DNA of 64,000 nucleotides from Acidimicrobiia bacterium (GCA_035461905.1 DATHUV010000034.1:8574-72573), one strand, 5' to 3'; numbered from the stretch's first letter, positions 1,269 through 63,972 are shown. The notes: generated by a model not told the origin, from the letters alone. Translations and numbers: made by a program.

Positions 1269-1329
1269 CCCCCGTTCTTGCGTAACTGGGTTCCGCCCTG
1301 AGTGAAACCCAGTTACGCAAGAACGGGGG
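1269..1329 (+). repeat. Palindromic element copy 1 (perfect 24-bp arms CCCCCGTTCTTGCGTAACTGGGTT, 13-nt loop CCGCCCTGAGTGA)
   Basis: Arms at 1269-1292 and 1306-1329 are perfect reverse complements. The element lies between the co-directional CBS-like and cystathionine gamma-lyase genes. Confidence 0.95.
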
Positions 1330-29350: not shown

Positions 29351-29410
29351 CCCGTGTTCTTGCGTAACTGGGTTTCACCCAGGATGGAACCCAGTTACGC
29401 AAGAACGGGA
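29351..29410 (-). repeat. Palindromic element copy 2 (inverted orientation relative to copy 1)
   Basis: Arms GTTCTTGCGTAACTGGGTT at 29356-29374 and AACCCAGTTACGCAAGAAC at 29388-29406. The loop TCACCCAGGATGG is the reverse complement of a copy-1-like loop. It lies between the purL stop and the amidase start. Confidence 0.95.
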
Positions 29411-33884: not shown

Positions 33885-33945
33885 TCCCGTTCTTGCGTAA
33901 CTGGGTTCCACCCATGCGTGAAACCCAGTTACGCAAGAACGGAGG
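33885..33945 (+). repeat. Palindromic element copy 3
   Basis: Arms at 33885-33907 and 33922-33943 (core CCGTTCTTGCGTAACTGGGTT), loop CCACCCATGCGTGA. It lies between the convergent glbO and purB genes, and the right arm contains the purB stop codon. Confidence 0.95.
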
Positions 33946-35227
33946 ACTCGAGGCGGTCGAAGACGATCGAGCTGTTGCGTAGGAAGCGGGCGGTGTCGAA
34001 GCAGGTGGCCAGCACGTCGGGGGCGAGGGTGCACTCGGGGTCGGCGGCCAGGCGGCCCTCGAGCGTCCCTCCCTCATCCCATGCGGCCATGGCGTTTTGT
34101 TGGACGATGCGGTACGCCTCGTCACGCGTCGAGCCTCCGTCGACGAGGGCGAGCAGGACGGCCTGGCTGTACACGAGGCCACGTGTCGAGTCGAGGTTCG
34201 CGGCCATGCGATCGGTGTCGACGACCAGGGTCTCGACGAGTCGGGTCATCCGCAACAGGGCATAGTGGAGCAGCGTCGTCGCGTCGGGGAGGGCGACCCG
34301 TTCGACCGATGAATGGGAGATGTCGCGCTCGTGCCACAACGCCACGTCCTCGAGTCCTGCCGATGCATATCCGCGAAGGAGCCTCGCAGCGCCCGTCAGG
34401 TTCTCGGATGCGATCGGGTTCCGCTTGTGGGGCATGGCCGACGAACCCTTCTGCCCGGATCCGAATGCCTCACGAACCTCCCCGACCTCGGACCTCTGCA
34501 GGTGGCGAATCTCGGTTGCGAACCGTTCGAGCGTCGCTCCGACAAGGGCGATCACCGACAGGAAGTGTGCATGACGGTCGCGGGCGACGACCTGAGTGGA
34601 TGCGGGCTCGATATTGAGGCCGAGCTTGTCGCAGACGTACGACTCGACGGATGGGGGAGTGTGCGCGTACGTCCCGACGGCGCCGGAGATCTTCCCGACG
34701 GCGACGTCCGTGACCGCGTCGGTGAGACGTTCGTGATCCCGTTGCACCTCGAACGCCCAGCTTGCGAGTTTCAGCCCGAACGAAGTCGGTTCCGCCCAGA
34801 TGCCATGCGTCCGGCCGATCATGGGTGTGTCTCGGAACTCGAACGCCCTGCGCTTGACGACGTCAAAGAGACCCGAGATCGCGTCGAGCAGCAGGTTGCC
34901 GGCCTCTCCGAGCAGGACACCGGTCGCCGTGTCGAGGACGTCTGAGGAGGTGAGGCCGAAGTGGATCCACTCGCCGCCCTCGCCGACCGACTCCGCCAGG
35001 AGGTCGACGAAGGCCGCAACGTCGTGGTTCGTGACCTTCTCACGCTCCTTCCACGCGACCGAATCGACCTGAGGGCTCTTGCGAGCGGCGTCTGCTGCGG
35101 AGTGGGGCGCTACCCCGAGTTCGGCCCATGCCTCGACGACCAGGATCTCGACGTCGCGCCAGACGGCGAGTTTGCGCGCCTCCGACCAGACATCGTTCAT
35201 CTCGGGCGTCGAGTACCGCTCGATCAT
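33929..35227 (-). CDS. purB: Adenylosuccinate lyase
   Basis: 432 aa: MIERYSTPEM, and GSSAMPHKRNP (fumarate-lyase signature). The last four codons (GTT CTT GCG TAA, VLA-stop) lie inside element copy 3. Confidence 0.94.
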   Translation of the reverse strand: MIERYSTPEMNDVWSEARKLAVWRDVEILVVEAWAELGVAPHSAADAARKSPQVDSVAWKEREKVTNHDVAAFVDLLAESVGEGGEWIHFGLTSSDVLDTATGVLLGEAGNLLLDAISGLFDVVKRRAFEFRDTPMIGRTHGIWAEPTSFGLKLASWAFEVQRDHERLTDAVTDVAVGKISGAVGTYAHTPPSVESYVCDKLGLNIEPASTQVVARDRHAHFLSVIALVGATLERFATEIRHLQRSEVGEVREAFGSGQKGSSAMPHKRNPIASENLTGAARLLRGYASAGLEDVALWHERDISHSSVERVALPDATTLLHYALLRMTRLVETLVVDTDRMAANLDSTRGLVYSQAVLLALVDGGSTRDEAYRIVQQNAMAAWDEGGTLEGRLAADPECTLAPDVLATCFDTARFLRNSSIVFDRLESSVLA

Positions 35228-43985: not shown

Positions 43986-44028
43986 CTTCCTGCGTACGAA
44001 CCCGTGTGGGCATCAGTTACGCAGGAAC
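43986..44028. repeat. Degenerate palindromic element copy 7
   Basis: CTTCCTGCGTA (43986-96) and TTACGCAGGAAC (44017-28) match the family arms with substitutions (GTTCCTGCGTAA). The element lies between the convergent ABC ATPase and lgt genes. Its right arm encodes the lgt C-terminus V-P-A-stop. Confidence 0.7.
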
Positions 44029-44871
44029 CGTCTCCTTCTGGGGTGAGAGCAGGGTTGGGTCCCCGATCAAGGTGCGGCGCTCCGCTCGCTTCTGCGTGTA
44101 CCAGATCCATGCGAGGCCGCCGGCAAATGCGACGATGGACACCCAGCCGTTGCGGCTGAGCCCGAGGAACCGGAACGTCGTATCCGTGCGAATGAGCTCC
44201 ATCACGAACCTGATGAACGCGTACATCGCGACGTACACACCCCATGAGGCACCCTTCGCGAGCTTGCCACGCCGCTCCAGCCACAGGATCGTCGGTACGA
44301 GGATGAGCAGGTTCCACAACGCCTCGTACGCGAACGTCGGGTGGAACGTCTCGAACTGCTCATAGCCGTCGGGGCGTCGTGCGGGGTCGATGATGATCGC
44401 CCACGGCAGGTCGCTCGGTGTTCCGAACAACTCCTGGTTGAAGTAGTTGCCGAAGCGGCCGATGGCCTGGGCGAGGGGGAGCCCGACGGCGATCGCATCG
44501 CCGATCGCAAACAGGTCCCCCTGATGCTTGTCGACAAGGTAGATGATCGTGAGTGCCCCGAACACGAGCCCCCCATAGAGGGCGAGCCCACCCTCCCAGA
44601 TGTACAGCATCGCCCACGGCCTGCCCGAGAAACGGCCCGTATGGGTCACGACGTACGCGGCCCGGGCACCGAGGAATCCGATCACGACGGCCCAGATCGC
44701 GACCTTCTCGAAGAGCTCTGGACTCCCACCGAACCGGGCGTAGCGATGCCTCGACACGATGATCGCGGTGATGACGCCTATCGCGATCAGGATCCCGTAG
44801 AAGTGGATGGTCAGCGGACCGATCTCGATCGTGTTCTGGGCAGGCGAAGGGATGGCCGCGATCAGGTTCAT
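44017..44871 (-). CDS. lgt: Prolipoprotein diacylglyceryl transferase
   Basis: 284 aa: IHFYGILIAIG, GRFGNYFNQELFG. The start overlaps the AhpD-like stop (ATGA). Confidence 0.92.
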   Translation of the reverse strand: MNLIAAIPSPAQNTIEIGPLTIHFYGILIAIGVITAIIVSRHRYARFGGSPELFEKVAIWAVVIGFLGARAAYVVTHTGRFSGRPWAMLYIWEGGLALYGGLVFGALTIIYLVDKHQGDLFAIGDAIAVGLPLAQAIGRFGNYFNQELFGTPSDLPWAIIIDPARRPDGYEQFETFHPTFAYEALWNLLILVPTILWLERRGKLAKGASWGVYVAMYAFIRFVMELIRTDTTFRFLGLSRNGWVSIVAFAGGLAWIWYTQKRAERRTLIGDPTLLSPQKETVPA

Positions 44872-49698: not shown

Positions 49699-50571
49699 CT
49701 ACTTCTCGATCGGGACGCGGACGGCGTTCCCGTACTCGGTCCACGAGCCGTCGTAGTTGCGGACCGTGGGGTACCCGAGCAGGTGTGTCAGGACGAACCA
49801 GGTGTGGCTCGACCGCTCGCCGATGCGGCAGTAGACGATCACGTCATCGTCTCGGGAGAGGCCGACCTCTCCCTCATAGATGGACTCGAGCTCCGATCGC
49901 GACCGGAAGGTCCCATCTTCTGAGGCTGCCCTCTTCCAGGGCACGTTTGCTGCCCCGGGGACGTGACCACCTCGGAGGGCACCCTCGTTCGGATAGTCGG
50001 GCATGTGCATGCGCTCCCCACTGAACTCCTCGGGGGATCGAACGTCGATCAGGGGCATGCCGTTGGCGCTGTGCTCGACGGTGTCGGACAGGAAGGCGCG
50101 GATAGCGGTGTCGTCTCGGACGGGAACGGGGTACTCGGATCGGGCACGCTCTGGTACGTCGGTGGTCATGGGGCGGTCCTCGGCGAGCCACTTCTGCCTG
50201 CCCCCGTCGAGCAGACGGACGTTGTCGTGGCCGAACAGCGAGAACACCCACAACGCATACGATGCCCACCAGTTGAAGTTGTCCCCGTAGAAGACAACGG
50301 TGGTATCCCGGGAGATCCCGTGGCGCTCCATCAGGTCTGCAAACGCCTCGGGGCTCAGGTAGTCACGCACGAGGGGATCGTTGAGGTCGGCGTGCCAATC
50401 GATCTTCACCGCTCCGGGGATGTGCCCGGTTTCGTAGAGGAGGACGTCCTCATCGGATTCGACGACCACGATGGAGGGATCGTCGAGGTGCTCGGCGAGC
50501 CAGTCGGTCGATACGAGAATGTCCGGGTTGGCGTACTCGGAGAACTTCGGGGAGCGGTCGCCTGACGTCAT
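49699..50571 (-). CDS. Thiosulfate / 3-mercaptopyruvate sulfurtransferase (tandem rhodanese)
   Basis: From ATG 50571: [13 protein letters not shown]...[11 protein letters not shown], with the active-site loop [13 protein letters not shown] in the second domain. Confidence 0.88.
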
Positions 50572-50668
50572 GGGGATCCCTTTCGAGCCTCGGTGCCGGA
50601 GCGTCCGTATGGTAACCACTACCGAGATAGGTAGAATACGGGATTCAGCGACTCGCAGAACGGTGATC

Positions 50669-51091
50669 ATGCCCCTTCCCGCGAAACTCGACCAGATCGT
50701 CACCCTGATGCACGGTGCACCCAAGAACCTCAAGGTCGAGGCGATGCTCGACTACTCGCGCCGGCTGCCACCCCTGCCTTCGCACATCGAGGCGGCGGAC
50801 CTCGAGCAGGTCCACGAGTGCCAATCCCCGTTCTTCCTCGCGACGGAGGTCGATGACGACGGGACGGTGCACCTCTTCTTCGAAGTGCCCCAGGAAGCCC
50901 CGACGGTGCGCGGCTTCGCCGGGATTCTGCTCGACGGCCTCGATGGTGAGTCCGCGGATGTCGTGCTCGGGGTTCCCGACGACTTCTTCTACGCGATGGG
51001 TCTCGAGGAGGTCGTCACACCGATGCGGTTGCGCGGCATGGGAGCGATCCTCGCAAGGATCAAGCGTCAAGTGCGCGACGCCGTCGCATGA
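50669..51091 (+). CDS. sufE: SufE-like sulfur acceptor protein
   Basis: From ATG 50669: [11 protein letters not shown]...[10 protein letters not shown] (conserved Cys)...[14 protein letters not shown]. It is divergent from the rhodanese gene. Confidence 0.8.
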
Positions 51092-51104
51092 CCCGGACGC
51101 GAGA

Positions 51105-51126
51105 GGGGAGCGCCCGGGCGCTCCCC
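51105..51126. terminator. GC-rich palindromic hairpin between convergent sufE and SPFH genes
   Basis: GGGGAGCGCC-CG-GGCGCTCCCC is a perfect 10-nt inverted repeat. The top pairs must open to form a loop. Confidence 0.55.
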
Positions 51127-51149
51127 GCCGGCAACCCGGTTCCACGCCG

Positions 51150-52127
51150 CTACATCCCGGAGTCGGGTGTCCCCCCGAACTGCGGACCGGTGCGCCGGTC
51201 CCTCATCTCGGTTGCGGCAACCCGCTGCGAGTCAGTGAACAGCTCCCCGATCGCACCGATGCTCGAGAGCACGCCTGCGGTTTCGAGGGGGAGGTAGATC
51301 TTCGAGGCCTGCCCGTCGGCAATCCCCTGAAGTGCTTCGAGGTACTTGATGGCGATGAGGTCGGGCGTCGGGTCTCCGGTGTGGATCGCCGAGAACACCC
51401 GCTCGATCGCACGCCCTTCGCCCTCTGCGATGGTCTCCTTCTGGTACCGCTCGGCGTCTGCGACCTCGCGGATGGCCTGGGCCTGTCCCTCGGCGTCGAG
51501 GATCCTCGACTGCTTCACACCCTCCGAGCGGAGGATCGCTGCGCGCTTGTCACCCTCGGCTTCCGTCACCAGGGCACGACGATCGCGCTCCGCCTTCATC
51601 TGGCGGTGCATCGCGTCCGTCACGTCGGCGGGAGGGTCGATCCTCTGGATCTCGACACGAACGACCCTGGTACCCCAGACGTCCGTTGCCTCGTCGAGGA
51701 TCAGCCGCAACTCGGTGTTGATCTTCTCCCTTGACGTGAGGGCGTCGTCGAGATCCATGTCTCCGACCACGTTCCTCAGGTTGGTCTGGGCGAGCTTGGT
51801 CGCAGCGAGGATGAAGTTCGCCACGTTGTACGCAAGCTTGACCGGGTCGGTGGCCTGGAAGTACACGACGGCGTCGACGGTCACGACGACGTTGTCCTTC
51901 GTGATGACCTCCTGCGGTGGCACGTCGACGACCTGCTCACGCATGTCGATCTTGCGTACCTTCTCGATGAACGGCACGATCAGGTGGAATCCCGGATCGA
52001 GCGTCTTGCGGTATCGACCGAATCGCTCGACGAGACCCTGCTCGTACTGTTGGACGATCTTGATCGCCAGCCCCACGTAGATGATGAGTACGACGATGAG
52101 GACCAGGATGATCCCTGCGGCTTCCAT
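51150..52127 (-). CDS. SPFH/band-7 (stomatin-like) membrane protein
   Basis: N-terminal TM helix, then [34 protein letters not shown]...TKDNV and a coiled, Ala/Glu-rich C-terminal half. Confidence 0.9.
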
Positions 52128-52158
52128 GCGTTCCCTTTCTCCTTCGACCTTGTCTGAC

Positions 52159-52956
52159 CTAGATGTCCTTGGGCTCGACGACCAGGCGCGCGCCGCGCAC
52201 CTCGACGACCCTGACGATGGTGCCTGCGGCGATCTCGTCGTCCCTGTCGGTGGTCGCCCGCCAGTCCTCTGTTCCCATCTTCACGGCGCCTGTCGTGAAC
52301 CTACTCACAGGCTCGCGGACGATCGCCGTTGCGCCGACGTAGCGGGCGGCGCCCACTGCGACGAGCTCACCGTGGACGTCCTTGCGGGCGAATCGCTGAA
52401 GCATCCACAGTGATGCGACGGAGACCACGACGAACGTGATGACCTGGAGCGGGACGGTGACGTTGGCGATTGCGAGCACGCCTGATGCTGCGGCGCCGAT
52501 GGCGAACGGCAGGAGGAAGAAGCCCGCGGTGACCATTTCGCCGACGGCAAGGAGAGCTGCCGCGATCAGCCAGACGGCGATCCATGTCCCCTGGTCGGTG
52601 CCGTCGTCCTCGGGCGCTACCACAGCGACGAGGGCGACGAGGGCGACCATGACCAGGATTCCTGCCCACAGGGCCCATCCAGGGGCCCGTCCATCGGTGG
52701 TGGGCATCGATGGGGGAGTCACGATCATTGGTGCAGCTGCGGGCTTCGGTCCGCGGAAGGCGAGCGCCCACTCCTCGGCGAAGTCATCGATGTCGGACCC
52801 GGTGACTGTCTCGATCCCCTTGTTCGCCGCAACGGCGTCCTCGAGGTGAGAGCGAAGCTCCGCGGCCATCTCGTCGGTTGCAGTCGGGGTGACGCCTGAG
52901 CCGAGCCAGTATGAACGGCACCGGTCCATCACCTGATCGACGGTCAGATCTGTCAC
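52159..52956 (-). CDS. Fusion protein: PadR-partner HAAS/DUF1700-like helical domain, TM helices, and C-terminal NfeD OB-fold
   Basis: GTG 52956 overlaps the padR stop (GTGA). The N-terminus [39 protein letters not shown] is the pattern seen in PadR-adjacent membrane partners. Four TM helices follow. The C-terminus [11 protein letters not shown]...[15 protein letters not shown]...[18 protein letters not shown] is the NfeD beta-barrel. Confidence 0.7.
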
Positions 52957-53294
52957 GTTGTGACTCCCTTCAAAACCTCGTCCACACCGTCTCTCAGGCT
53001 GGACCACTCATTTCTCCACTCGGTGAGGCGCTGCTCGCCCTCCGGTGCGATCCGGTAGTACTTCCGGGGTGGGCCGGATCCGTCAGCCTCGACGAAGAAT
53101 CCCTCGATGAGCGACGACCGCTGCATCCTCGACAGTGTCGGGTAGATCGAACCCTCACTCATCAGGTGCAATCCCCTCCTACTCAGCTTGTCGGCCATTT
53201 CGTACCCGTAACTTGGCTCCTCGCTGATTATTGCAAGAAGACACATGTCGAGCACTCCTTTGAGGAGCTGGCTCCGATGATCCATGCGACCCAT
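52953..53294 (-). CDS. PadR-family transcriptional regulator
   Basis: LLKGVLDMCLLAIISEEPSYGYEMADKL...GSIYPTLSRM. Possible starts are ATG 53294, ATG 53285 or GTG 53306. Confidence 0.9.
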   Translation of the reverse strand: MGRMDHRSQLLKGVLDMCLLAIISEEPSYGYEMADKLSRRGLHLMSEGSIYPTLSRMQRSSLIEGFFVEADGSGPPRKYYRIAPEGEQRLTEWRNEWSSLRDGVDEVLKGVTT

Positions 53295-53321
53295 ATCTTG
53301 TATCACCCGTTATCTAGGTTT

Positions 53322-53352
53322 CCATGATATCCACTGTCCATTGATATCATGG
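53322..53352. promoter_or_regulatory. Perfect 10-bp inverted repeat upstream of padR (probable PadR operator)
   Basis: CCATGATATC (53322-31), an 11-nt spacer, then GATATCATGG (53343-52). It lies in the only markedly AT-rich stretch nearby, 16-58 nt upstream of the candidate padR starts. Confidence 0.6.
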
Positions 53353-53406
53353 TAAGACGACTATGTCAAGGGTGGTTTCGTCACCGGGGGCGATTCCGGT
53401 CCGCCG

Positions 53407-54312
53407 TCAGGGACAGCTGGGCCGCCACTCGCCCTCACCGAACACCGAGGCGGCGATGGTCCACAGGGCGGGGTCGTAGTCGAGCAGCTCGTCCCTCGTG
53501 TTGATGGCGTTGTGGCTGGAGTTCGGTTCCCGATCCTCGGCCGTGTCCTCCAGGTTCGCGTCGAAGTAGCTCTGGGCACCCTCCATCCAGTACTCGTCCG
53601 CGTTGATCTCCGCCAAGGTGTTGTTCCACAGGCCCTGTGCAATCGCTCGACCGTACGCCTGGTCGATCGCGAGGGAGGTTGCCGGGTCGGCCGTGTCGAT
53701 CCCGAACCTCTTGATCGTGAGCGCGAAGGCGCGTACGAAGTCGTCCTCGCCCTCGTAGAAGTCTCCGTCCGAGCACAGCAGGTTCTCCTCTGCTCCTGCG
53801 AAGTACGGGACGAGTTCGGTGCCGGGGAACGATCGACCCCGCCGTATCCAGTCGAAGCCCGGGTACTGGTCGTACAGGTCGGCGAACTCCGGGAGCTCGG
53901 TGATGCGCTGGTCCTCGTCGATGATCCGTCCCGCGAGCCCCTGATCGACCATGGCCGCAAGGAGGTCCGGTCTGCTGAGGAGCATCTCGTAGACGCGCTC
54001 TGCAGCGGCTGTCACGGCAGAGGGCTCGACGTCCTCGGGTGCGAGGATCTCGATACCGAGCACGCTGCATCCCTGCGCATACCCCTCGACGGAGGCGTCG
54101 GCTCCCACGACGCACTCGTTCTCGGGCAGGGCGATCGTGGTGGTCGTCGTCGGGTCGGTCCCGGGTGCACTCGTCGTGGTGCTGCCGAGTGGGGCAAGCG
54201 TCGTGATGGGCGTCTGGTCAGTCGTCGACGTCACGATGACGCCGGCGTTGCTCGACGTGCATGCCGCAACGGTGATGGCGAGTGCTACGGCGAGGAGGCT
54301 GAACCTGTGCAT
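53407..54312 (-). CDS. Lipoprotein of unknown function
   Basis: MHRFSLLAVALAITVAAC (lipobox), a Thr-rich linker, and a roughly 230-aa domain with no motif I recognise. Confidence 0.7.
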   Translation of the reverse strand: MHRFSLLAVALAITVAACTSSNAGVIVTSTTDQTPITTLAPLGSTTTSAPGTDPTTTTTIALPENECVVGADASVEGYAQGCSVLGIEILAPEDVEPSAVTAAAERVYEMLLSRPDLLAAMVDQGLAGRIIDEDQRITELPEFADLYDQYPGFDWIRRGRSFPGTELVPYFAGAEENLLCSDGDFYEGEDDFVRAFALTIKRFGIDTADPATSLAIDQAYGRAIAQGLWNNTLAEINADEYWMEGAQSYFDANLEDTAEDREPNSSHNAINTRDELLDYDPALWTIAASVFGEGEWRPSCP

Positions 54313-54385
54313 CGCGCCCGAGGATACGACCCTGGTGGTCGAGGTCGTGCTTCAACGCCGAAGGTGGTGGTGTACCTTTGCCGAC

Positions 54386-54745
54386 ATGTCACCGTCAGCA
54401 GCCGACATCGAGGCCCTTGCCCGCACCCGCACGGTTGACCTGACCACCATCGGTCGACGCTCAGGGCAGCCACGCACCGTCGAGATCTGGTGGTTCCACG
54501 TGGATGGCCGGTTCATCATCACCGGGACACCGGGCCGCCGCGACTGGCTCGCGAACGTTCGAGCAAACCCGCGCGTGACGGTCTCCGCAGGCAACGGCGA
54601 CTTCCACGGAACCGCGACGGAGGTGGATGATGCCGCGTTCAAGCGTCGCGTCTTCACGGATGCCCAGATCGGCTGGTACCGGACGCAGGCGGACCTCGAC
54701 GAGCTGATCTCCACCGCACCGATGGTCGAGGTCGTGCTTCACTGA
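54386..54745 (+). CDS. DUF385-like deazaflavin (F420)-dependent nitroreductase family protein
   Basis: From ATG 54386: TIGRRSGQPRTVEIWWFHVDGRFIITGTPGRRDWLANVRANPRVTV. The longer track ORF would overlap the lipoprotein gene. Confidence 0.65.
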   Translation: MSPSAADIEALARTRTVDLTTIGRRSGQPRTVEIWWFHVDGRFIITGTPGRRDWLANVRANPRVTVSAGNGDFHGTATEVDDAAFKRRVFTDAQIGWYRTQADLDELISTAPMVEVVLH

Positions 54746-54752
54746 CGGAGAT

Positions 54753-54804
54753 GTTCTTGCGTAACTGGGTTCCACCCATGGGCGGAACCCAGTTACGCAA
54801 GAAC
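54753..54804 (+). repeat. Palindromic element copy 4
   Basis: GTTCTTGCGTAACTGGGTT at 54753-71 and AACCCAGTTACGCAAGAAC at 54786-804. The inner CC/GG pairs extend the stem. The right arm contains the clpB stop codon (54793-95). Confidence 0.95.
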
Positions 54805-57369
54805 GGCGAAGGTGGGGCCGTTCTCGTCGGCGCCGATGGTGACCCGCGAGCCCTCGGGGAGCTCACCGGCGAGGACACGCATCGCAAGCGGGTCGGCGAC
54901 CGCCGTCTGGAGCAGGCGCTTCAGCGGCCTCGCCCCGTAGGTGGGGTCGTAGCCGTGGTCGGTGAGCCAGTCGATACCGGCATCGGCCAGTTCCACGTCG
55001 ATCTTGCGATCGGCGAGCCGGTGGCGGAGGATCTCGAACTGGATCTCGACGATCTGGCGAAGGTCCTCTCTGGTGAGTCGATGGAAGACGATCACGTCGT
55101 CGACCCGGTTGAGGAACTCCGGGCGGAAGTGCCCACGCACCGCACCCATCACCCTCTCCTCGACGACCTCCTCGGGCAGCTCGGGGTCGATGAACTCCGA
55201 CCCGAGATTGGACGTCATCACGAGGACGGTGTTCGTGAAGTCGACGGTTCGACCCTGCCCGTCCGTCATGCGGCCGTCATCGAGCACCTGGAGGAGGGCG
55301 TTGAACACGTCGGAGTGGGCCTTCTCGACCTCATCGAGGAGGATCACCGAATACGGCCTCCGCCGAACCGCCTCGGTCAGCTGGCCTCCCTCGTCATACC
55401 CGACGTACCCGGGGGGAGCGCCGATGAGGCGGCTCACGGAGTGCTTCTCCATGTACTCGGACATGTCGATGCGCACCATTGCCCGCTCGTCGTCGAACAT
55501 GAACTGCGCCAGGGCCCTGGCGAGCTCGGTCTTGCCGACGCCCGTCGGGCCGAGGAAGAGGAACGAGCCGATCGGTCGATTCGGGTCCGAGAGGCCCGCC
55601 CGTGAGCGTCGGATCGCGCTCGCGATCGATGTCACCGCCTCTTGCTGCCCTACGACGCGGCCGTGGAGATGGTCCTCGAGATGGATGAGTTTGTGCATCT
55701 CGCCCTCCATGAGCTTGGACACCGGAACACCGGTCCATCGGCTCACGACCTCGGCGACGTCCTCCTCGTCGACTTCCTCCTTGAGCATCTTCAGGTCCTG
55801 CTGGAGCGAGTCGAGCCTGCCCTGTTCCTCCTGGAGTTGCTGATCGAGGCTCGGCAGGGTCGCATACCGCAGTTCGGCAGCCCGCTCGAGATCCCCGGAA
55901 CGCTCGGCACGGTCGGCCTCGGCGCGGGACTCCTCGATCCGTCCCTTCGTCCCTCGGATCGCGTCGATCGAATCCTTCTCGAGCTGCCAGTGCGCCATGA
56001 GGGCGTCGAGCTCCTCACCGATATCCGCTAGCTCCTCGACGATCGCCTCGCGACGCTCCTCTGAAGCACGGTCCTCTTCCTTGGCAAGGGCCTGGCGCTC
56101 GATCTCGAGCTGACGGCGCCGTCGTTCGAGTTCATCGATCTCGTCAGGCATCGAGTCGATCTCGATCCGGAGCTTCGACGCCGCCTCATCGATGAGGTCG
56201 ATCGCCTTGTCCGGAAGGTGCCGGCCGGTCACGTACCGGTCCGAGAGGACGGCCGCACCGATGAGGGCAGCGTCCGTGATACGAACCCCGTGGTGGACCT
56301 CATAGCGCTCCTTGAGGCCACGAAGGATGCCGATGGTCTCGTCGACACTCGGGGCATCGACGAGGACTGGCTGGAATCGACGCTCGAGCGCAGCGTCCTT
56401 CTCGATGTACTTGCGGTACTCGTCGAGCGTCGTCGCCCCGACCATGCGGAGCTCACCGCGGGCGAGCATCGGCTTGAGCATGTTCGATGCGTCCATCGAC
56501 CCCTCGGCGGCGCCCGCTCCGACGATCGTGTGCATTTCGTCGATGAAGGTGATGATGCGACCCTCAGCGGCCTTGATCTCACCGAGCACCGCCTGGAGTC
56601 GCTCCTCGAATTCTCCGCGGTACTTCGCACCTGCAACCATCGATCCGATGTCGAGGGCGACGAGCCGTCGGTTCTTGAGGCTCTCGGGGACGTCACCGTC
56701 GACGATCCGCTGGGCGAGGCCCTCCGCAATCGCCGTCTTGCCCGTGCCCGGTTCGCCGATGAGGACGGGGTTGTTCTTCGTTCGGCGTGAGAGCACCTGA
56801 ACGACGCGACGAATCTCGTCGTCGCGACCGATGACCGGGTCGAGTCTTCCCCTCCTGGCCTCCTCGGTGAGGTCCCTCCCGTACTTGTCGAGTGGCGCGA
56901 ACGTGTCCTCGGGGTTCTGGCTCGTCACGCTCTGGCTCCCGCGCACAGACGCGAGTGACTCGAGGATCGTGGCCTTCGTCACGCCGGCAGATCGGAGGAT
57001 CTCCCCGGCGGTGAACTCAGACTCCGCAAGTGCGATCAGGATGTGCTCGACAGAGGTGTAGGCGTCCTTCATCCCCGTCCGCTCGCGTGTTGCCGCGTCG
57101 AGGACGTCGAGCGTGTCTTGCGAGAACGCGACCTCTGATCCACCAACGACCCTCGGGATCGCAGCGAGCGCGGCATCGAGCGGTTGCCGTACCGCCGTGA
57201 CGTGGGCGCCGACGGACGCGAGGATCGGGTACACCAGGCCGTCCGTCTGGGCGAGCAAGGCATCGAGGAGGTGCTCGGGCTGCGCATACTGGTGGTTGCG
57301 TGCGCTGGCCACGTCCCGTGCGTGGAGGATCGCCTGTTGGCTTCGCTGCGTGAAGGTGTTGATGTCCAT
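54793..57369 (-). CDS. clpB: ATP-dependent chaperone/disaggregase ClpB
   Basis: From ATG 57369 ([14 protein letters not shown]). There are two AAA+ modules ([10 protein letters not shown] and [11 protein letters not shown]) and a middle coiled coil. The C-terminus ...[10 protein letters not shown]-stop has its last codons inside element copy 4. Confidence 0.95.
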
Positions 57370-57468
57370 GGGTCCCCGATTATCGTGTCGCACGACCGAG
57401 TTCCTCGATCGTCCCCTGTAATGCTACCTCCAATTCAACGCTGCTAGTGAGTGATGTATGCCAGATAA

Positions 57469-57489
57469 CTTGAGTCAAAGTGACTCAGA
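57469..57489. promoter_or_regulatory. HAIR (HspR-associated inverted repeat) operator upstream of clpB
   Basis: CTTGAGT-CAAAGTG-ACTCAGA compares with the consensus CTTGAGT-N7-ACTCAAG. It lies about 100 nt upstream of the clpB ATG in an AT-richer divergent promoter region. hspR itself is at 63570-63971. Confidence 0.75.
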
Positions 57490-57502
57490 ACACGAAGGTC
57501 AG

Positions 57503-57982
57503 ATGGAAGGCGGTGGCACCGATGGCCGTGGCGGCGTCTGGGTCGCCGGACAGGTGGTGCTGTTCGGCCTTTTTCTCGTGAGCGTGATCGGATCGGGCCC
57601 CATTCCAGACGTCCCCGGCATCCAGTTCGCTCGGATCGTCGGCATCCTCGTGGCTCTCGGGGGCGCCGCGCTGTCGAGCTGGGCATTCGTCCATCACGGG
57701 TCTGATCTGACTCCATTCCCGAAGCCTGTGGATGGTCAGCAGCTCATCGACCAGGGTCCGTACCGCCACGTCCGGCACCCGATGTACTCGGGAATCATCG
57801 CTTTCACGCTCGGTGTCGGCCTCGCGTATGCGAACCCTGCGACGATGCTGTCGTCGCTGGCATTCACCGTGTTCTTCATGGCGAAGACGGGCCACGAGGA
57901 GGAACTGCTCATCCGTCACGTACCCGGGTATCGCGCCTACCGAGCGGCGGTTCCGTGGAGGTTGATCCCGTTCGTCCTGTGA
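57503..57982 (+). CDS. Isoprenylcysteine carboxyl methyltransferase (ICMT/PEMT)-family membrane methyltransferase
   Basis: From ATG 57503. Polytopic, with LIDQGPYRHVRHPMYSGIIAFTLG and EEELL. Confidence 0.8.
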   Translation: MEGGGTDGRGGVWVAGQVVLFGLFLVSVIGSGPIPDVPGIQFARIVGILVALGGAALSSWAFVHHGSDLTPFPKPVDGQQLIDQGPYRHVRHPMYSGIIAFTLGVGLAYANPATMLSSLAFTVFFMAKTGHEEELLIRHVPGYRAYRAAVPWRLIPFVL

Positions 57983-58062
57983 CCGGCGGATACGGCGGGC
58001 CGTCCCTTACCGTTCGCGCGAGTGCTCCCGTGGTGTGGGGCGACGTGAAAGGGGTCAGGTCC

Positions 58063-58503
58063 ATGCGAGCGTTTCGTACTGCTGCAGTCATCGCGGCGTT
58101 CGCCCTCATTCTGGCGGCGTGCAGCGGGGGTGACGAAGTCTTGAGTGTCGACGACGCATGGGGGCGGCCCTCACCGACGTCATCGTCGAATGGAGCGTTC
58201 TACATGACGATCACGGGCGGTGCCGAGGACGACCGCATCGTCTCTGCGGAATCGCCGGCATGCGGCATGGTCGAGCTTCACGAAACCACGATGACCGACG
58301 GCTCGATGTCGATGCGCGAGCTCCCCGGCGGCATCCCCGTTCCCTCCGGCGAAACGGTCGTCCTCGAACCAGGCGGCATGCACATCATGTGTATGAATGT
58401 CCAGACTGCGCTGACGGAGGGAGAGACCGTAGCCGTCAAGCTCACCCTCGAGAACAGCGGCCTCATCACGGTGCAGGCCGAGATCCGCGAATTGGCTCCC
58501 TGA
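58063..58503 (+). CDS. Copper chaperone PCu(A)C (DUF461) lipoprotein
   Basis: From ATG 58063: MRAFRTAAVIAAFALILAACSG (lipobox). GAFYMTITGG, and VELHETTMTDGSMSMREL (H..M..M copper motif). Confidence 0.85.
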   Translation: MRAFRTAAVIAAFALILAACSGGDEVLSVDDAWGRPSPTSSSNGAFYMTITGGAEDDRIVSAESPACGMVELHETTMTDGSMSMRELPGGIPVPSGETVVLEPGGMHIMCMNVQTALTEGETVAVKLTLENSGLITVQAEIRELAP

Positions 58504-58530
58504 CCTTTCGTCCTCCCTTCAGGAATGGAG

Positions 58531-58551
58531 TCCGATCACTGCGTGATCGGA
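58531..58551 (+). terminator. Hairpin downstream of the PCu(A)C gene
   Basis: TCCGATCAC-TGC-GTGATCGGA, a 9-bp stem 28 nt after the stop. There is no T-tract. Confidence 0.45.
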
Positions 58552-58734
58552 AGCCTCCAGCCTACGAGCTGGGTTTCGAGGCCCAAGACGGTCGGCCTAC
58601 CTATGAGACAGCAAGACTCTTGGGGGGACGGGCGAACGAAGTGAGCCAGGGGGTCCGCGAGCCCGCGAGCACGGGAGTGGGATGCGGCCGCGGTGTGGTT
58701 CTTCGTCCCGTGATCCCCCTGCATCGTCGCTTCG

Positions 58735-58773
58735 CTCCTCTGCCGTCCCCCTTGAAAAGGGGGACGAGAGGAG
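58735..58773 (-). terminator. Extended hairpin immediately downstream of the DUF427 gene
   Basis: CTCCTCT-GCC-GTCCCCCTT-GAA-AAGGGGGAC-G-AGAGGAG gives 16 bp in total with a small internal loop, starting 16 nt after the minus-strand stop at 58789. Confidence 0.55.
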
Positions 58774-58788
58774 TCCGGCGTCAGCCGA

Positions 58789-59073
58789 TCAGGGGGTGAC
58801 CTTCACTCCGCGCCAGAAGGCGATGTAGTCCTTGATGTCGGATGCCGCAGGCTTCGGATCCGGGTAGTACCACGCGGCACCGGCGTTGACGGCTCCATCG
58901 ACCACGACGTCGTAGTAGCTCGCTGTCCCCTTCCAAGGGCACACCGTGTGGGCATCCGACGCCTTGAAGAACTCGGTGTGCACCGCGTCCGGAGGGAAGT
59001 AGTGGTTCCCCTCGACCACGATGGTCTCGTCGCTCTCGGCAACGACCGTTCCGTTCCATGTGGCAATTGCCAT
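58789..59073 (-). CDS. DUF427-domain protein
   Basis: 94 aa: WNGTVVAESDETIVVEGNHYFPPDAV...CPWKGTASYYDVVVDG..NAGAAWYYPDP. Confidence 0.8.
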   Translation of the reverse strand: MAIATWNGTVVAESDETIVVEGNHYFPPDAVHTEFFKASDAHTVCPWKGTASYYDVVVDGAVNAGAAWYYPDPKPAASDIKDYIAFWRGVKVTP

Positions 59074-59184
59074 GGCCTACTCCTCAGTTGACTTGTTGTG
59101 TCCTCTTGAACGGTTCGGTCCGGCGCTGCATTCCGGATGTCGACTCGCAGGCATAGAGGGCCCCGCGCCCACTAGCGTTGCGGC

Positions 59185-59817: not shown

Positions 59818-59821
59818 TGTC

Positions 59822-60178: not shown

Positions 60179-60258
60179 CAGGCAAGGGTAGGGGATGTCG
60201 ATCTGCCCGGCCCGGCGCCGCGTATTACCCTGTGTGTGTTCCCCCGAGGAAGTGACCA

Positions 60259-61332: not shown

Positions 61333-61342
61333 GCCTTCCAAC

Positions 61343-61404
61343 TCCCCGTTCCTGCGTAACTCACGTCCCCTCCCGGGGCGTCAGCTACGCAAGGACGGGA
61401 GGGG
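61343..61404. repeat. Degenerate palindromic element copy 5
   Basis: CCCCGTTCCTGCGTAACTCACG ... CGTCAGCTACGCAAGGACGGGAGGGG. The arms match the family with several substitutions and still largely pair. The right arm GGACGGGAGGGG doubles as the Shine-Dalgarno region for the ATG at 61410. Confidence 0.75.
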
Positions 61405-61409
61405 CGCCC

Positions 61410-63527
61410 ATGCGTGAGCCTGCATCGGTCGATTGGGCGGATCTGTATGAGGTCGTCGGACGTGACGGGTCGATCGTCGGGGACGGTGAGATGCCGCCGT
61501 GGATCACGGAGGAACTCGCAACCGACCTCTACCGGGGGATGCTGTGCGCGAGGGTGTTCGACCGGCGTGCCACCGCAGCCCAGCGTCAGGGGCGGATCGG
61601 CACGTACGCGATCGCCGAGGGGCACGAAGCGATCCAGGTCGGGAGCGCCAAGGCACTTCGACCGAATGACTTCGTATACCCGGGGTATCGGGAGCACGGC
61701 GTGCAGATCGCAATGGGCGTCCCCTACGACACGATCCTGTCGTACTGGCGGGGCCTCCCCAACGCGACCTGGGATCCGCCTGCCATGCGCCAGATGGTGG
61801 TCACGGTGCCGATCGGAAGCCATCTCCCCCACGCGGTCGGGCACGCGTATGCCGAGCGTCTCGCCGGACACGATGTGGTGACGGTCGCCTACATCGGTGA
61901 TGGCGGGACATCCGAGAACGACTTCCACTCCGGGGTCAACTTCGCGGGTGTGTGGAAGACGCCCACCGTCTTCATCGTGTCAAACAACTTCTACGCGATC
62001 TCGGTGCCGTACGAGCAGCAGACGGCAGCCGCGAACCTCGCTGCGAAGGCTCCGGGCTATGGCGTGGCGGCAGAGCGGGTGAACGGGTTCGATGCCCTCG
62101 CGGTATACGACGCAACGCGTCGAGCCGTCGAGCGTGGAGCGGCGGGGGATGGGCCAACGCTCATCGAGGCTGTCTGTTACCGATTCGGTCCCCACGCAAC
62201 TGCCGACGATCCCGGCCTGTACCGGACGAAGGACGAGGAGGAACTGTGGCGCCCGTACGACCCGCTCATCCGGATGCGTCGGTTCCTCGAGTCGAACGGG
62301 TGGTGGGATACCGATCGTGAGGACGAAGCACAGAATGCGGCCGCGTCCGCCTTCGATCAAGCGCTCGACCGGGTGACCGCGATCCCGCTTCCTCCACGGT
62401 CGGATGCGATCGCGCACACCTTCTCGCGAACACCCGACTCCCTCCTCGAGCAGCTCAATCGAATAGAGGATGCCGCAGGGGAGGCCAGGACTGAGCTCCC
62501 GGCGTCGGAGCGGTTCGATGTGGGTGTGGACCAGCTCCCCGACGGTCCAACCACCTCGTTGACGATGGCAGAGGCCATCAACGCTGCGTTGCACCATGAG
62601 ATGGGTGCTGATCCCACGACCGTTCTCCTCGGCCAGGACGTCGCGGTGGCCGGAGGTGTGTTCCGGGTGTCCGTCGGCCTCCTCGAGGCGTTCGGTCCCG
62701 AACGGGTGATCGACACGCCGATCAACGAGTCCGGCATCGTCGGGACGGCGATCGGCATGGCGATGGCCGGGATGAGGCCGATCGCTGAGATCCAGTTCGA
62801 AGGGTTCTCATATCCCGCGTTCGACCAGATCGCGAGCCACCTCGGACGGATACGGTTCCGCTCCCGCGGGCACACGTCGCTCCCGATGGTTCTACGGATG
62901 CCCAACGGAGCAGGCATCGGCGCCCACGAGCACCACTGTGACAGTCCCGAGGCGTACTTTGCCCACGTGCCCGGTGTGATCGTCGTCGTCCCTTCGTCCC
63001 CGATCGACGCCAAGGGTCTGCTCGCAGCCGCGATCCGGTCACCGGACCCGGTGATCTTCCTCGAACCGAAGGTGTTGTACAGGGCCGGACGCGAGGAGGT
63101 GCCCGACGCACCGTACGAGCTCCCCATCGGCAGGGCCCGTATCCGTCGCCCCGGAAGCGATGTCACCCTCGTGACCTACGGGGGGATGGTGCCCGTTTCG
63201 CTCCGTGCGGCGGGGATGGTGGAGGGGGAAGGCGTCGATGTCGAGGTGATCGACCTTCGCACGATCTACCCGTGGGATGTCGGGACAGTGGCGGACTCGG
63301 TCAGCCGAACGGGCCGCCTTCTCTTCGTCCAGGAGCCCCAACGCACGGGAGGGGTGGGTGCCGAGGTCGTGGCCGAGATCGCCGAACGGTGCGGCTACGA
63401 CCTGATCGCTCCACCGCGGCGGTTCAGCGCGACGGACGCCCCGTGGCCCCAGTTCGCGGTCGAACGACACGCACTGCTCACCGACACGATGATCGCCTCG
63501 GAACTCCGCTCCCTCGTTCTTGCGTAA
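61410..63527 (+). CDS. Fused 2-oxoacid dehydrogenase E1 component (alpha and beta subunits in one polypeptide)
   Basis: Residues about 1-350 form the E1-alpha TPP-binding part (YIGDGGTSENDFH, NNFYAIS). After a linker, residues about 385-705 form E1-beta (MAEAINAALHHEM, IDTPINESGIVG, EIQFEGFSYPAFDQI). It is a single uninterrupted ORF whose last codons GTT CTT GCG TAA lie inside element copy 6. Confidence 0.88.
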   Translation: MREPASVDWADLYEVVGRDGSIVGDGEMPPWITEELATDLYRGMLCARVFDRRATAAQRQGRIGTYAIAEGHEAIQVGSAKALRPNDFVYPGYREHGVQIAMGVPYDTILSYWRGLPNATWDPPAMRQMVVTVPIGSHLPHAVGHAYAERLAGHDVVTVAYIGDGGTSENDFHSGVNFAGVWKTPTVFIVSNNFYAISVPYEQQTAAANLAAKAPGYGVAAERVNGFDALAVYDATRRAVERGAAGDGPTLIEAVCYRFGPHATADDPGLYRTKDEEELWRPYDPLIRMRRFLESNGWWDTDREDEAQNAAASAFDQALDRVTAIPLPPRSDAIAHTFSRTPDSLLEQLNRIEDAAGEARTELPASERFDVGVDQLPDGPTTSLTMAEAINAALHHEMGADPTTVLLGQDVAVAGGVFRVSVGLLEAFGPERVIDTPINESGIVGTAIGMAMAGMRPIAEIQFEGFSYPAFDQIASHLGRIRFRSRGHTSLPMVLRMPNGAGIGAHEHHCDSPEAYFAHVPGVIVVVPSSPIDAKGLLAAAIRSPDPVIFLEPKVLYRAGREEVPDAPYELPIGRARIRRPGSDVTLVTYGGMVPVSLRAAGMVEGEGVDVEVIDLRTIYPWDVGTVADSVSRTGRLLFVQEPQRTGGVGAEVVAEIAERCGYDLIAPPRRFSATDAPWPQFAVERHALLTDTMIASELRSLVLA

Positions 63528-63566
63528 CTGAGTTCCACCCTCGGTGGAACTCAGTTACGCAAGAAC
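63516..63566. repeat. Palindromic element copy 6 (variant with perfect 24-bp arms and a 3-nt loop)
   Basis: GTTCTTGCGTAACTGAGTTCCACC (63516-39), CTC, then GGTGGAACTCAGTTACGCAAGAAC (63543-66). It exactly fills the gap between the convergent E1 fusion (stop 63525-27) and hspR (stop 63570-72). Confidence 0.95.
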
Positions 63567-63569
63567 GGG

Positions 63570-63971: not shown

Positions 63972-63972
63972 G

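What the first reader, a model, noticed from the sequence alone, without database searches (positions are those of the whole stretch)
54753..54804. Palindromic element arms donate the C-terminal V-L/P-A and TAA stop codon to four conserved genes
Each outer arm reads GTT CTT GCG TAA on its own strand. Four genes terminate with exactly these codons inside an element arm:
- clpB ends ...PTFAVLA-stop at 54793-54804.
- purB ends ...LESSVLA-stop at 33929-33940.
- The fused E1 ends ...RSLVLA-stop at 63516-63527.
- lgt ends ...KETVPA-stop at 44017-44028, in the degenerate copy (GTT CCT GCG TAA).

So in 4 of 7 copies the element has apparently inserted into, or been recruited as, the extreme 3-prime end of an essential-type gene, replacing the native terminus. 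Because it is palindromic, it can do this for both genes of a convergent pair.
Basis: seen in the sequence. Interest (0 to 1): 0.7.

Follow-up and report, generated by a model that had tools for sequence, protein, structure and literature searches.

The report
Palindromic repeat supplies gene stop codons
A 51-base palindromic repeat scattered between genes of an uncultured Acidimicrobiia bacterium carries a TAA in each arm, and genes that lose their own stop codon end there with three extra residues (Val-Leu-Ala); this is real and recurrent, but it is a new example of something already described for other bacterial palindromic repeats.

Summary
The window holds exactly seven copies of a 49-52-bp palindrome. 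clpB, purB, the fused E1 gene and lgt each end GTT C(T/C)T GCG TAA inside an arm.

The same element is present in at least five related Acidimicrobiia MAG species: 65 copies at 38 independent sites. It is always intergenic. Stop codons usually lie 3-24 nt from its edge. Eight of 52 independent arms that face a gene end donate the terminus. In two other MAGs both arms of one copy end both genes of a convergent pair.

- **ClpB:** two relatives keep the native stop plus a 5- or 14-nt spacer in front of the same element. The fusion therefore arose by a small deletion, and VLA is a 3-residue extension.
- **E1, PurB, E2:** two or three native residues are swapped.
- **Lgt:** a variable acidic tail is lost.

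TAA is the only stop triplet in the element. No gene enters the arms in the other two frames.

The element is a REP/TRIT-like hairpin repeat (-44 to -50 kcal/mol). It has a conserved outer box and an inner stem that varies with compensating changes. REP ends that donate TAG stops, and mycobacterial TRITs that overlap coding ends, are already published. I class this as a new member of a known kind, of moderate interest.

The parts
54753..54804 (.). Palindromic element copy. Its right arm, read on the minus strand, supplies V-L-A and TAA to clpB. An F420H2-reductase-like gene ends at 54745, 7 nt from the left arm.
54793..57393 (-). clpB (866-aa ORF). Its last 12 nt, 54793-54804, are the element arm. 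Its native end ...TF(A/T) is intact, and VLA is an extension.
33889..33940 (.). Palindromic element copy. Its right arm supplies V-L-A and TAA to purB. A convergent globin-like gene ends at 33880, 8 nt from the left arm.
33929..35227 (-). purB (432 aa). It ends ...ESSVLA* in the arm. Orthologues without the element are 431 aa and end ...x-x-L*.
63516..63566 (.). Palindromic element copy of the A/T variant at pair 16. Its left arm supplies V-L-A and TAA to the fused E1 gene. A convergent MerR-family gene ends 3 nt from the right arm.
61410..63527 (+). Fused 2-oxoacid dehydrogenase E1 alpha/beta gene (705 aa). It ends ...RSLVLA*. Orthologues of 82% identity or less end in three different residues at the same length, most often A-x-E after ...RSL.
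43986..44028 (.). Decaying element copy. The gene-side arm GTTCCTGCGTAA is kept as the lgt terminus (V-P-A, TAA). The far arm is eroded.
44017..44871 (-). lgt (284 aa). It is truncated after ...SPQKETV compared with relatives, which carry a further acidic tail of at least 8 residues.
1274..1324 (.). Element copy inside a probable operon. It lies 6 nt after the stop of a PALP-family gene and 76 nt before a Cys/Met PLP-enzyme gene. It is not used as a stop.
29356..29406 (.). Element copy between the start of an amidase gene and the stop of the purL-type (AIRS-domain) gene, which lies 21 nt away. It is not used as a stop.
61348..61396 (.). Variant copy with outer box GTTCCTGCGTAAC and a different inner stem. 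It is inserted between the aminotransferase and E1 genes, which overlap by ATGCGTGA in relatives. It is not used as a stop.

Best explanation
**What it is.** The element is a dispersed intergenic palindromic repeat of an Acidimicrobiia lineage, of the REP/TRIT kind. It has an invariant 13-15-nt outer box, GTTCTTGCGTAAC(TG). Inside the box is a self-complementary inner stem that differs between lineages.

**Position (shown).** It sits tightly against genes. Stop codons usually lie 3-24 nt from its edge.

**The built-in stop (shown).** Each arm holds exactly one stop triplet, TAA at arm positions 10-12, and in one reading frame only.

**How fusions arise (shown for clpB, consistent for E2, inferred for the rest).** When small deletions remove the short spacer and the native stop, the ORF runs into the arm, reads GTT CTT GCG and stops.

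**Why only this frame (partly shown, partly inferred).** Entry in the other two frames would translate the whole palindrome and run on beyond it. No gene is seen in that state, which I take to mean it is selected against.

**What the tail is (inferred).**
- The VLA tail is a tolerated by-product, not a selected tag.
- Fusions survive where VLA adds to, or closely imitates, the native last residues: ClpB +3, PurB xL to VLA, E2 TL to VLA, E1 usually AxE to VLA.
- They also survive where the lost tail is dispensable, as in Lgt.

**After fusion (shown for lgt).** The arm is kept as coding sequence even when the hairpin decays.

**What the element itself does (inferred).** Most likely it acts as a very stable RNA hairpin at the 3' ends of transcripts read from either side. 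That hairpin would define or protect mRNA ends, and when it lies within a ribosome footprint of the stop codon it would dampen translation of the upstream gene. A sequence-specific factor probably reads the outer box.
For: **Anatomy**
- The stem is 22-25 bp, with dG of -44 to -50 kcal/mol and z-scores of -8 to -13.
- 95% of cells are paired. Pair 16-40 covaries G-C 28 to A-U 20, and most other columns are invariant.
- Other lineages keep the outer box but carry different, compensated inner stems.

**Distribution**
- The element was found in the Acidimicrobiia MAGs CAVWBO01, CAZYGP01, JAWOGV01, JAQAZV01 and DASWKM01, plus an Actinomycetota MAG, JASJXX01.
- There are 65 copies at 38 sites, all intergenic. 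Of the 44 unfused gene ends, 39 lie within 24 nt of the element.

**Direction of change**
- clpB is unfused in the outgroup JAQAZV (14-nt spacer) and in CAZYGP (5-nt spacer). It is fused in the window and in CAVWBO.
- E2 is unfused in JAQAZV and fused in CAZYGP and CAVWBO.

**Frame exclusivity:** 20 ORFs enter the element in the TAA frame, and none in the other two frames.

**Absence of a tag signal:** T10, A11 and A12 are invariant in all 62 aligned copies, whether or not they serve as a stop. Unfused stops show no frame bias.

**Fossil arm:** in L063, lgt keeps GTTCTTGCGTAG while the far arm is gone.

**Replacement of local hairpins:** loci with native gene ends carry no element but have a unique GC-rich hairpin in an intergenic gap of the same length. 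This holds for E1 in L061 and L062 and for purB in L058.

**Published parallels**
- REPs within 15 nt of a stop codon stall ribosomes (cited in PMC12306157).
- Mycobacterial TRITs are conserved palindromes that start about 8 nt inside coding sequences (PMC3152330).
Against: - No transcript data exist for these uncultured organisms, so the RNA-level role is inferred.
- There is no U-tract, and the consensus terminator scan does not call the copies it covered, at 54753, 61348 and 63516.
- In M. tuberculosis, TRIT predictions overlapped few mapped 3' ends (bioRxiv 10.1101/2022.06.01.494293).
- Eight copies lie between divergent genes. Two window copies lie inside probable operons, which an efficient terminator would disrupt.
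- G-U against A-C asymmetry on the transcribed strand is 18 to 10, which is not significant.
- For E1, purB and lgt, no intermediate state with the element downstream of an intact native stop was found. Direct insertion cannot be excluded for those three.
- For E2, the direction of change rests on a single outgroup.
Confidence: 0.7

Rival explanations
1. The palindrome is a mobile element that inserts directly into the last codons of genes. It replaces the native terminus in a single step, and only insertions in the TAA frame survive.
For: - The element is mobile or newly formed at some sites. The copy at 61348-61396 is absent from CAZYGP (L001) and from L061 and L062, where the two flanking genes overlap.
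- The copy at L023 4076 is absent from the window.
- For E1, purB and lgt, relatives either lack the element and keep native ends, or have the element already fused. No intermediate was found.
Against: - clpB and E2 show the intermediate state: native stop, short spacer, then the element at the same site.
- The gap between the flanking genes is the same length with and without the element: 54 against 55 nt at E1, and 60 against 62 nt at purB. A simple 51-nt insertion would lengthen it.
- Canonical copies have no target-site duplications.
Confidence: 0.2
2. The element works at the DNA level and not as an RNA hairpin. It would be a binding or recombination site for a sequence-specific protein, such as a nucleoid-associated, ParB-like or recombinase-type protein. 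It would lie at gene ends only because insertions there are tolerated.
For: - The outer box is almost invariant across species whose coding DNA is only 79-88% identical. Structure alone does not require that.
- Copies mark gene-sized insertions, deletions and one inversion at several sites.
- 13 of 24 CAVWBO copies cluster within 200 kb of the contig.
- The inner arm GTTCCAC equals a parS half-site (my own knowledge of parS).
Against: - The inner stem changes with compensation between lineages. That points to base pairing within one strand, not to contacts with double-stranded DNA.
- The parS-like half-sites are separated by 6-8 bp and are absent from other lineages' variants.
- Recombination between 51-bp repeats needs no dedicated protein.
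Confidence: 0.25
3. The V-L-A tail is itself selected. It would be a short hydrophobic C-terminal tag, for example a protease-recognition signal resembling the ...LAA end of the tmRNA tag. The element would spread it to chosen proteins.
For: - The same tail has been acquired repeatedly, by at least eight gene families.
- The arm persists as coding sequence after the hairpin has decayed.
Against: - The TAA and the arm sequence are equally invariant in the roughly 85% of gene-end-facing arms that are not translated.
- The tail varies: VPA, LLA, and IPG in a diverged variant.
- Unfused stops are not enriched in frame with the arm TAA, at 15 of 39.
- The fused proteins share no function.
Confidence: 0.05
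4. The match is a coincidence, or the element grew out of a conserved gene end such as that of purB.
For: PurB orthologues without the element end x-L, and sometimes T-L-A, at the same alignment positions.
Against: - The same 12 nt sit in more than 60 copies at 38 unrelated sites.
- ClpB, E1 and Lgt orthologues without the element do not end in VLA.
- The chance expectation for the arm motif in the window is 0.56, against 14 observed.
Confidence: 0.03

Closest known systems
REP / BIME and REPIN repeats of Proteobacteria, including GTAG-tagged REPs (Di Nocera et al. 2013, PMC3733652; Bertels & Rainey 2011, PMC3116915)
   Same: - Short, dispersed intergenic palindromes.
- Found mostly between convergent or co-directional genes and close to stop codons.
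- No target-site duplication.
- Conserved at orthologous sites over long periods.
- Known to overlap ORF ends and to donate a stop codon (the TAG of the GTAG tag).
- Hot spots for rearrangement.
   Different: - This element is a near-perfect 51-52-bp palindrome with 22-25-bp arms, not a 20-40-bp imperfect one.
- It has no GTAG or CGTC tag.
- The donated stop is TAA, placed 9 nt inside the arm, so three fixed residues are added.
- Copy number is modest, about 24 exact copies in 2.7 Mb.
- No RAYT transposase was seen in the DNA available.
- The host is an uncultured actinobacterial class.
TRIT, the 'Tuberculosis Rho-independent terminator' motif of Mycobacterium (Gardner et al. 2011, PMC3152330)
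   Same: - An actinobacterial motif that is palindromic and therefore bidirectional.
- Both sequence and structure are conserved.
- It lacks a canonical U-tract.
- It is tightly associated with gene termini and often begins about 8 nt inside the coding sequence. That is the same geometry as the fused copies here, which begin 9 nt before the stop.
   Different: - TRIT was reported only in Mycobacterium, with 147 copies per genome.
- Most copies here lie 3-24 nt downstream of the stop, not inside the gene.
- Sequence relatedness could not be tested, because the consensus is not given in the text and there is no Rfam family.
REP-mediated translational down-regulation in E. coli (Liang et al. 2015, as cited in PMC12306157)
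   Same: A stable hairpin within about 15 nt of a stop codon. This describes most copies here, and by construction all fused ones.
   Different: The effect has been shown only in E. coli. Here the stop codon can lie inside the 5' arm itself. No expression data exist.
MITEs and in-frame palindromic insertions (Rickettsia RPEs; intragenic REPs, both mentioned in PMC3733652)
   Same: Small non-autonomous repeats that become part of coding sequences and change protein ends.
   Different: MITEs have terminal inverted repeats plus target-site duplications, which were not found here. RPEs insert in frame inside genes and are translated throughout. Here only 9 nt are ever translated.

Membership tests
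REP / REPIN (RAYT-mobilised) | Dispersed, intergenic, palindromic repeat that forms a hairpin | tested here: met
   There are 65 copies at 38 sites, all intergenic. The hairpin has dG of -44 to -50 kcal/mol.
REP / REPIN (RAYT-mobilised) | Conserved GTAG (or CGTC) tetranucleotide at one end, which is the RAYT cleavage site | tested here: not met
   The ends read GTTC...GAAC, and the consensus contains no GTAG or CGTC tag. The feature is as defined in PMC3733652.
REP / REPIN (RAYT-mobilised) | A cognate single-copy RAYT (Y1/HUH transposase) gene flanked by the repeats | not testable with these tools
   Only about 0.45 Mb of genomes of roughly 2.8 Mb is in hand. The genes found flanked by two copies are an F420H2-reductase-like gene, an MFS transporter and an AbiEi_4/MTES_1575 gene; none is a transposase.
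REP / REPIN (RAYT-mobilised) | No target-site duplication | tested here: met
   Direct repeats in the flanks are no longer than in shuffled pairings, mean 4.40 against 4.41 nt.
TRIT (mycobacterial conserved terminator motif) | Palindromic motif with conserved sequence and structure at gene termini, without a U-tract | tested here: met
TRIT (mycobacterial conserved terminator motif) | Narrow placement that begins about 8 nt inside the coding sequence | tested here: inconclusive
   This holds for 8 of 52 independent gene-end-facing arms, where the element starts 9 nt before the stop. The rest lie 3-24 nt downstream of the stop.
TRIT (mycobacterial conserved terminator motif) | Sequence homology to the Mycobacterium motif | not testable with these tools
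   The consensus is not given in the text. Rfam has no such family, and the Rfam search gives only generic hairpin hits below threshold.
MITE | Terminal inverted repeats flanked by a target-site duplication | tested here: not met
   Canonical copies have no such duplication. The one exception is the copy at 61348. There the 8-nt gene overlap ATGCGT(G/A)(A/G) is duplicated on both sides, which selection to keep both genes intact would also demand.
Canonical intrinsic terminator | GC-rich hairpin followed by a run of U | tested here: not met
   The flanks are G-rich or C-rich. The scan of 50000-64000 calls none of the three copies in that range.
Integron attC site | Imperfect palindrome with RYYYAAC / GTTRRRY cores and extrahelical bases, found in cassette arrays next to an integrase | tested here: not met
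   The GCGTAAC / GTTACGC boxes are one mismatch from the cores. However, the palindrome is perfect, the copies are dispersed among housekeeping genes, and no integrase was seen. The definition of attC rests on my own knowledge.
parS (ParB binding site) | 16-bp palindrome TGTTNCACGTGAAACA with abutting half-sites | tested here: not met
   The GTTCCAC half-sites are separated by 6-8 bp and are replaced by unrelated stems in other lineages. There is no canonical parS in the window.

The most novel reading that the evidence does not exclude
The AbiEi_4 (winged-helix) plus MTES_1575/DUF559 (restriction-endonuclease-fold) gene may be the element's cognate enzyme. It sits between two copies of the palindrome next to purB in four divergent lineages. 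It occurs there in both orientations and always ends inside an arm. If so, the pair would form a REPtron-like repeat-and-nuclease system that uses a PD-(D/E)XK-type nuclease in place of a RAYT tyrosine transposase. That would explain the near-invariant outer box and the long persistence of the element.
Probability: 0.1. Interest if true: 0.75.

Novelty: new member of a known kind. Interest (0 to 1): 0.4.

Why it matters
- **Annotation.** In this lineage, genes that end VLA-TAA inside the repeat are complete, not truncated or mis-called. About two thirds of the TAA stops in the DNA sampled come from the repeat.
- **Evolution.** The comparisons give a stepwise natural series of how a repeat turns into coding sequence in a streamlined genome. 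The steps seen are a 14-nt spacer, a 5-nt spacer, fusion, and finally a fossil arm left after the hairpin has decayed.
- **Transcript ends in high-GC Actinobacteria.** This is a second, independent case after the mycobacterial TRIT of a sequence-conserved hairpin without a U-tract that abuts or overlaps stop codons. It strengthens the case for testing experimentally whether such motifs define or protect transcript ends.
- **Limits.** It does not reveal a new principle. Stop-codon donation by palindromic repeats is already published.

Tried and rejected
- **Rfam.** At gathering thresholds there is no hit in the window. At E up to 10, only generic miRNA-precursor-like hairpin hits appear, far below threshold.
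- **Exact-sequence look-up of the window's ClpB.** Not on record.
- **Metagenome scan with PurB**. It returned mostly distant orthologues of 73% identity or less. None carries the element. It was useful only for showing that the native PurB end is ...x-L, sometimes TLA or TLT.
- **Target-site duplications.** No signal, so a MITE reading is rejected.
- **Frame bias of unfused stops relative to the arm TAA.** None, at 15 of 39. A 'selected tandem back-up stop' reading is therefore not supported.
- **G-U against A-C asymmetry on the transcribed strand.** 18 to 10, which is not significant.
- **parS reading.** Rejected.
- **attC/integron reading.** Rejected: perfect palindrome, dispersed copies, no integrase.
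- **HspR/HAIR operator reading.** I considered this because the copies lie beside clpB and the dnaK-operon MerR-family gene. I dropped it because the spacing differs and more than 30 other sites are unrelated to heat shock.
- **Plasmid and phage collections.** No match to the element.
- **Neighbour-joining tree of PurB.** The run timed out. I replaced it with average-linkage clustering, which is too crude to count independent fusions.

Full report
**1. The observation**

The window is about 65% G+C. At 54753-54804 it carries GTTCTTGCGTAACTGGGTTCCACCCATGGGCGGAACCCAGTTACGCAAGAAC, a 52-bp palindrome.

A 15-mer arm search with up to three mismatches gives 14 hits where 0.56 are expected. A covariance model built from 62 copies finds exactly seven copies in the window and nothing else above noise. 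They lie at 1274-1324, 29356-29406, 33889-33940, 43986-44028, 54753-54804, 61348-61396 and 63516-63566.

Pfam confirms ClpB, adenylosuccinate lyase (PurB), a fused E1 alpha/beta dehydrogenase and Lgt. Direct translation gives ...GPTFAVLA*...RLESSVLA*...LRSLVLA* and ...QKETVPA*. In each case the last 12 nt are the arm, GTT C(T/C)T GCG TAA. Four of the six TAA stops among 62 predicted genes in the window are arm-encoded.

**2. The element elsewhere**

An exact-pattern scan of one genome per species found the arm almost only in Acidimicrobiia MAGs. It was found in CAVWBO01, which includes a 2.7-Mb contig, and in CAZYGP01, JAWOGV01, JAQAZV01 and DASWKM01, plus one Actinomycetota MAG (JASJXX01).

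The window's own genome is not among them. CAVWBO, CAZYGP and JAWOGV match it at 87-91% nucleotide identity, and JAQAZV at 76-80%.

I catalogued 65 copies and predicted genes with a codon-usage model trained on the same DNA. I then grouped copies by flank similarity into 38 independent sites.
- Every copy is intergenic.
- 52 independent arms face a gene's 3' end and 34 face a start.
- Of the 44 unfused gene ends, 39 have their stop within 24 nt of the element, typically 3-8 nt.
- Eight independent arms are fused, meaning the gene ends at the arm's TAA. The fused genes are E1, ClpB, PurB, Lgt, an E2 acyltransferase, an AbiEi_4/MTES_1575 (DUF559) protein, an AzlD-family membrane protein and an unnamed 116-aa protein.
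- TAA is the only stop triplet in the element on either strand. Twenty ORFs with coding signal enter in that frame, and none in the other two.

**3. Extended, replaced or truncated?**

| Gene | Native end in relatives | End in the window | Net effect |
|---|---|---|---|
| ClpB | ...LTFT-TGA | ...TFA-VLA | 3-residue extension |
| E2 (relatives only) | ...ALETL-TGA | ...ALEVLA in CAZYGP and CAVWBO | TL replaced by VLA |
| E1 | ...RSL plus three residues, usually A-x-E | ...RSLVLA | three residues swapped, same length |
| PurB | ...x-x-L (431 aa) | ...SSVLA (432 aa) | xL replaced by VLA; the Leu is native |
| Lgt | ...SPQP(A/E)TV plus a further acidic tail of at least 8 residues | ...SPQKETVPA | tail truncated |

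- **ClpB.** CAZYGP (L023) has the native end followed by 5 nt and then the element. JAQAZV (L033) has it followed by 14 nt and then the element. The window and CAVWBO read straight into the arm. JAQAZV is the outgroup, so the unfused state is ancestral. The fusion is a small deletion that removed the stop and the spacer.
- **E2.** JAQAZV (L007) has the native end followed by 5 nt and the element.
- **E1.** Only relatives of 93-95% identity end SLVLA. All those of 82% identity or less keep a native end of the same length. Two such loci (L061, L062) have no element but carry a unique GC-rich hairpin in a gap of the same size.
- **PurB.**
  - About a quarter of 120 homologues of 75-94% identity end (S/T)VLA.
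  - A few element-free orthologues end TLA (L060, L070).
  - L058, whose PurB is 81% identical and has a native end, has no element and a gap of the same length.
  - In a diverged variant of the palindrome (L059), PurB ends IPG-TAG at the equivalent arm position.
  - VLA-ending PurBs are scattered among clusters of native-ended ones. The fusion is therefore either old with repeated losses or recurrent, and I could not decide which.
- **Lgt.** The truncated form is shared by the window's clade of 93% identity or more. In L063 (97% identity) only the gene-side arm survives, as GTTCTTGCGTAG. The arm is thus kept as coding sequence while the hairpin decays.

**4. Both arms at once**

In two other MAGs (L145, L147), one palindrome ends purB with its left arm and a convergent AbiEi_4/MTES_1575 gene with its right arm. 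Only 26 nt separate the two stops.

**5. What the element is**

- It folds as a 22-25-bp stem with dG of -44 to -50 kcal/mol in either orientation.
- Across 50 distinct copies, 95% of cells pair. One pair switches cleanly between G-C (28) and A-U (20), and most other columns are invariant.
- Other lineages keep the outer box GTTCTTGCGTAAC but have unrelated, self-complementary inner stems. This includes the window's own copy at 61348.
- There is no target-site duplication and no U-tract.
- There is no Rfam family and no match in plasmid or phage collections.
- No transposase was seen among the genes bracketed by two copies.

This anatomy fits the REP/REPIN class, although the GTAG/CGTC tag is missing. 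It most resembles the mycobacterial TRIT, a sequence-conserved, bidirectional hairpin without a U-tract that tends to start about 8 nt inside coding sequences (PMC3152330). [quoted passage not shown] REPs within 15 nt of a stop codon are reported to stall ribosomes in E. coli (cited in PMC12306157).

**6. How it most likely works**

*Shown*
- The element abuts gene ends.
- It has one stop triplet, in one frame.
- For clpB, the fused state derives from a state with stop, spacer and element.

*Inferred*
- In these small genomes, deletion trims the short spacers.
- When the native stop is lost and the frame matches, the arm's TAA ends the protein after three residues. The other frames would give long read-through products and are not seen.
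- Fusions persist where VLA adds to, or imitates, the native end, or where the lost tail is dispensable.
- The tail is not itself selected. The arm is equally invariant where it is untranslated. The tail varies (VPA, LLA, IPG). Unfused stops show no frame preference.
- The element's own role is most likely as an RNA hairpin that defines or protects 3' ends on both strands and dampens upstream translation when it lies within a ribosome footprint. This is by analogy, with no transcript evidence.
- Copies between divergent genes and inside probable operons argue against an efficient terminator.
- The near-invariant outer box implies a sequence-specific partner, which remains unidentified.

**7. 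Verdict**

The phenomenon is already known for REPs and TRITs. The element family appears undescribed, in an uncultured actinobacterial class. I class it as a new member of a known kind, with interest 0.4.

Noticed in passing
L017:6872-7931, L024:3061-4115, L145:2288-3299, L147:2288-3299; window 33889-33940: An AbiEi_4/MTES_1575 (DUF559) gene of 304-313 aa lies between two element copies next to purB in four divergent lineages. It is on the purB strand in L017 and L024 and inverted in L145 and L147, and it always ends inside an arm. The window and CAZYGP (L020) have a single element and no such gene. This looks like inversion and deletion by recombination between palindromes. The gene could also be the element's partner.
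   Followed up: partly
L007:1399-2004 vs L035/L037; L054:4269-5749 vs L043; L056 vs L048; L016 vs L031: At several further sites, one genome has a single element where another has an accessory gene bracketed by two elements, or extra gene-sized DNA (0.6-1.8 kb) next to its element. The bracketed or extra genes include an F420H2-reductase-like gene, an MFS transporter and a Sap-family gene. The repeats therefore mark gene-sized insertions and deletions.
   Followed up: partly
window 61290-61440: The variant copy at 61348-61396 separates the aminotransferase and E1 genes. In CAZYGP, L061 and L062 these genes overlap by ATGCGTGA. In the window, the 8-nt overlap is duplicated on both sides of a 77-nt insert. 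CAVWBO carries a 25-nt hairpin remnant at the same place.
   Followed up: partly
window 54328-54349 and 54722-54745: A 22-nt copy of the 3' end of the F420H2-reductase-like gene sits upstream of that gene, where CAZYGP (L023) has an element copy. CAVWBO (L003) lacks the gene body between the two 22-mers. This is consistent with a duplication followed by deletion between the short direct repeats.
   Followed up: partly
CAVWBO010000007.1 (loci L025, L034, L003, L017, L013, L011, L029, L053): 13 of 24 exact copies on the 2.7-Mb contig lie between 128 and 330 kb, which is the region syntenic with this window. The cause is unknown. It could be local spread or proximity to a chromosomal landmark.
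   Followed up: no
all canonical copies, e.g. window 54769-54788: The inner arms read GTTCCAC...GTGGAAC. These are two parS-type half-sites, but 6-8 bp separate them. Other lineages replace this stem entirely, so the resemblance is probably coincidental.
   Followed up: yes
L059:2797-2844: This is a diverged variant of the palindrome, ATTCCCGGGTAGTCGGGTTCC..., with model E-value about 1e-4. It ends purB with I-P-G and a TAG at the same arm position. Stop donation is therefore not tied to the exact VLA-TAA sequence.
   Followed up: partly
L011:5629-5680, L031:1268-1319: The 52-nt form has ATG in its loop (CCCATGGG). My gene finder chose that ATG as the start of two downstream genes. This is probably an artefact but was not checked against orthologues.
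   Followed up: no
L019 vs L036; L022 and L049 vs L050: Two short CAVWBO contigs (contig_8152 and contig_28828) carry element sites whose flanks are identical or nearly identical to JAQAZV contigs. This suggests mis-binning, or sequence shared between the two MAGs.
   Followed up: no
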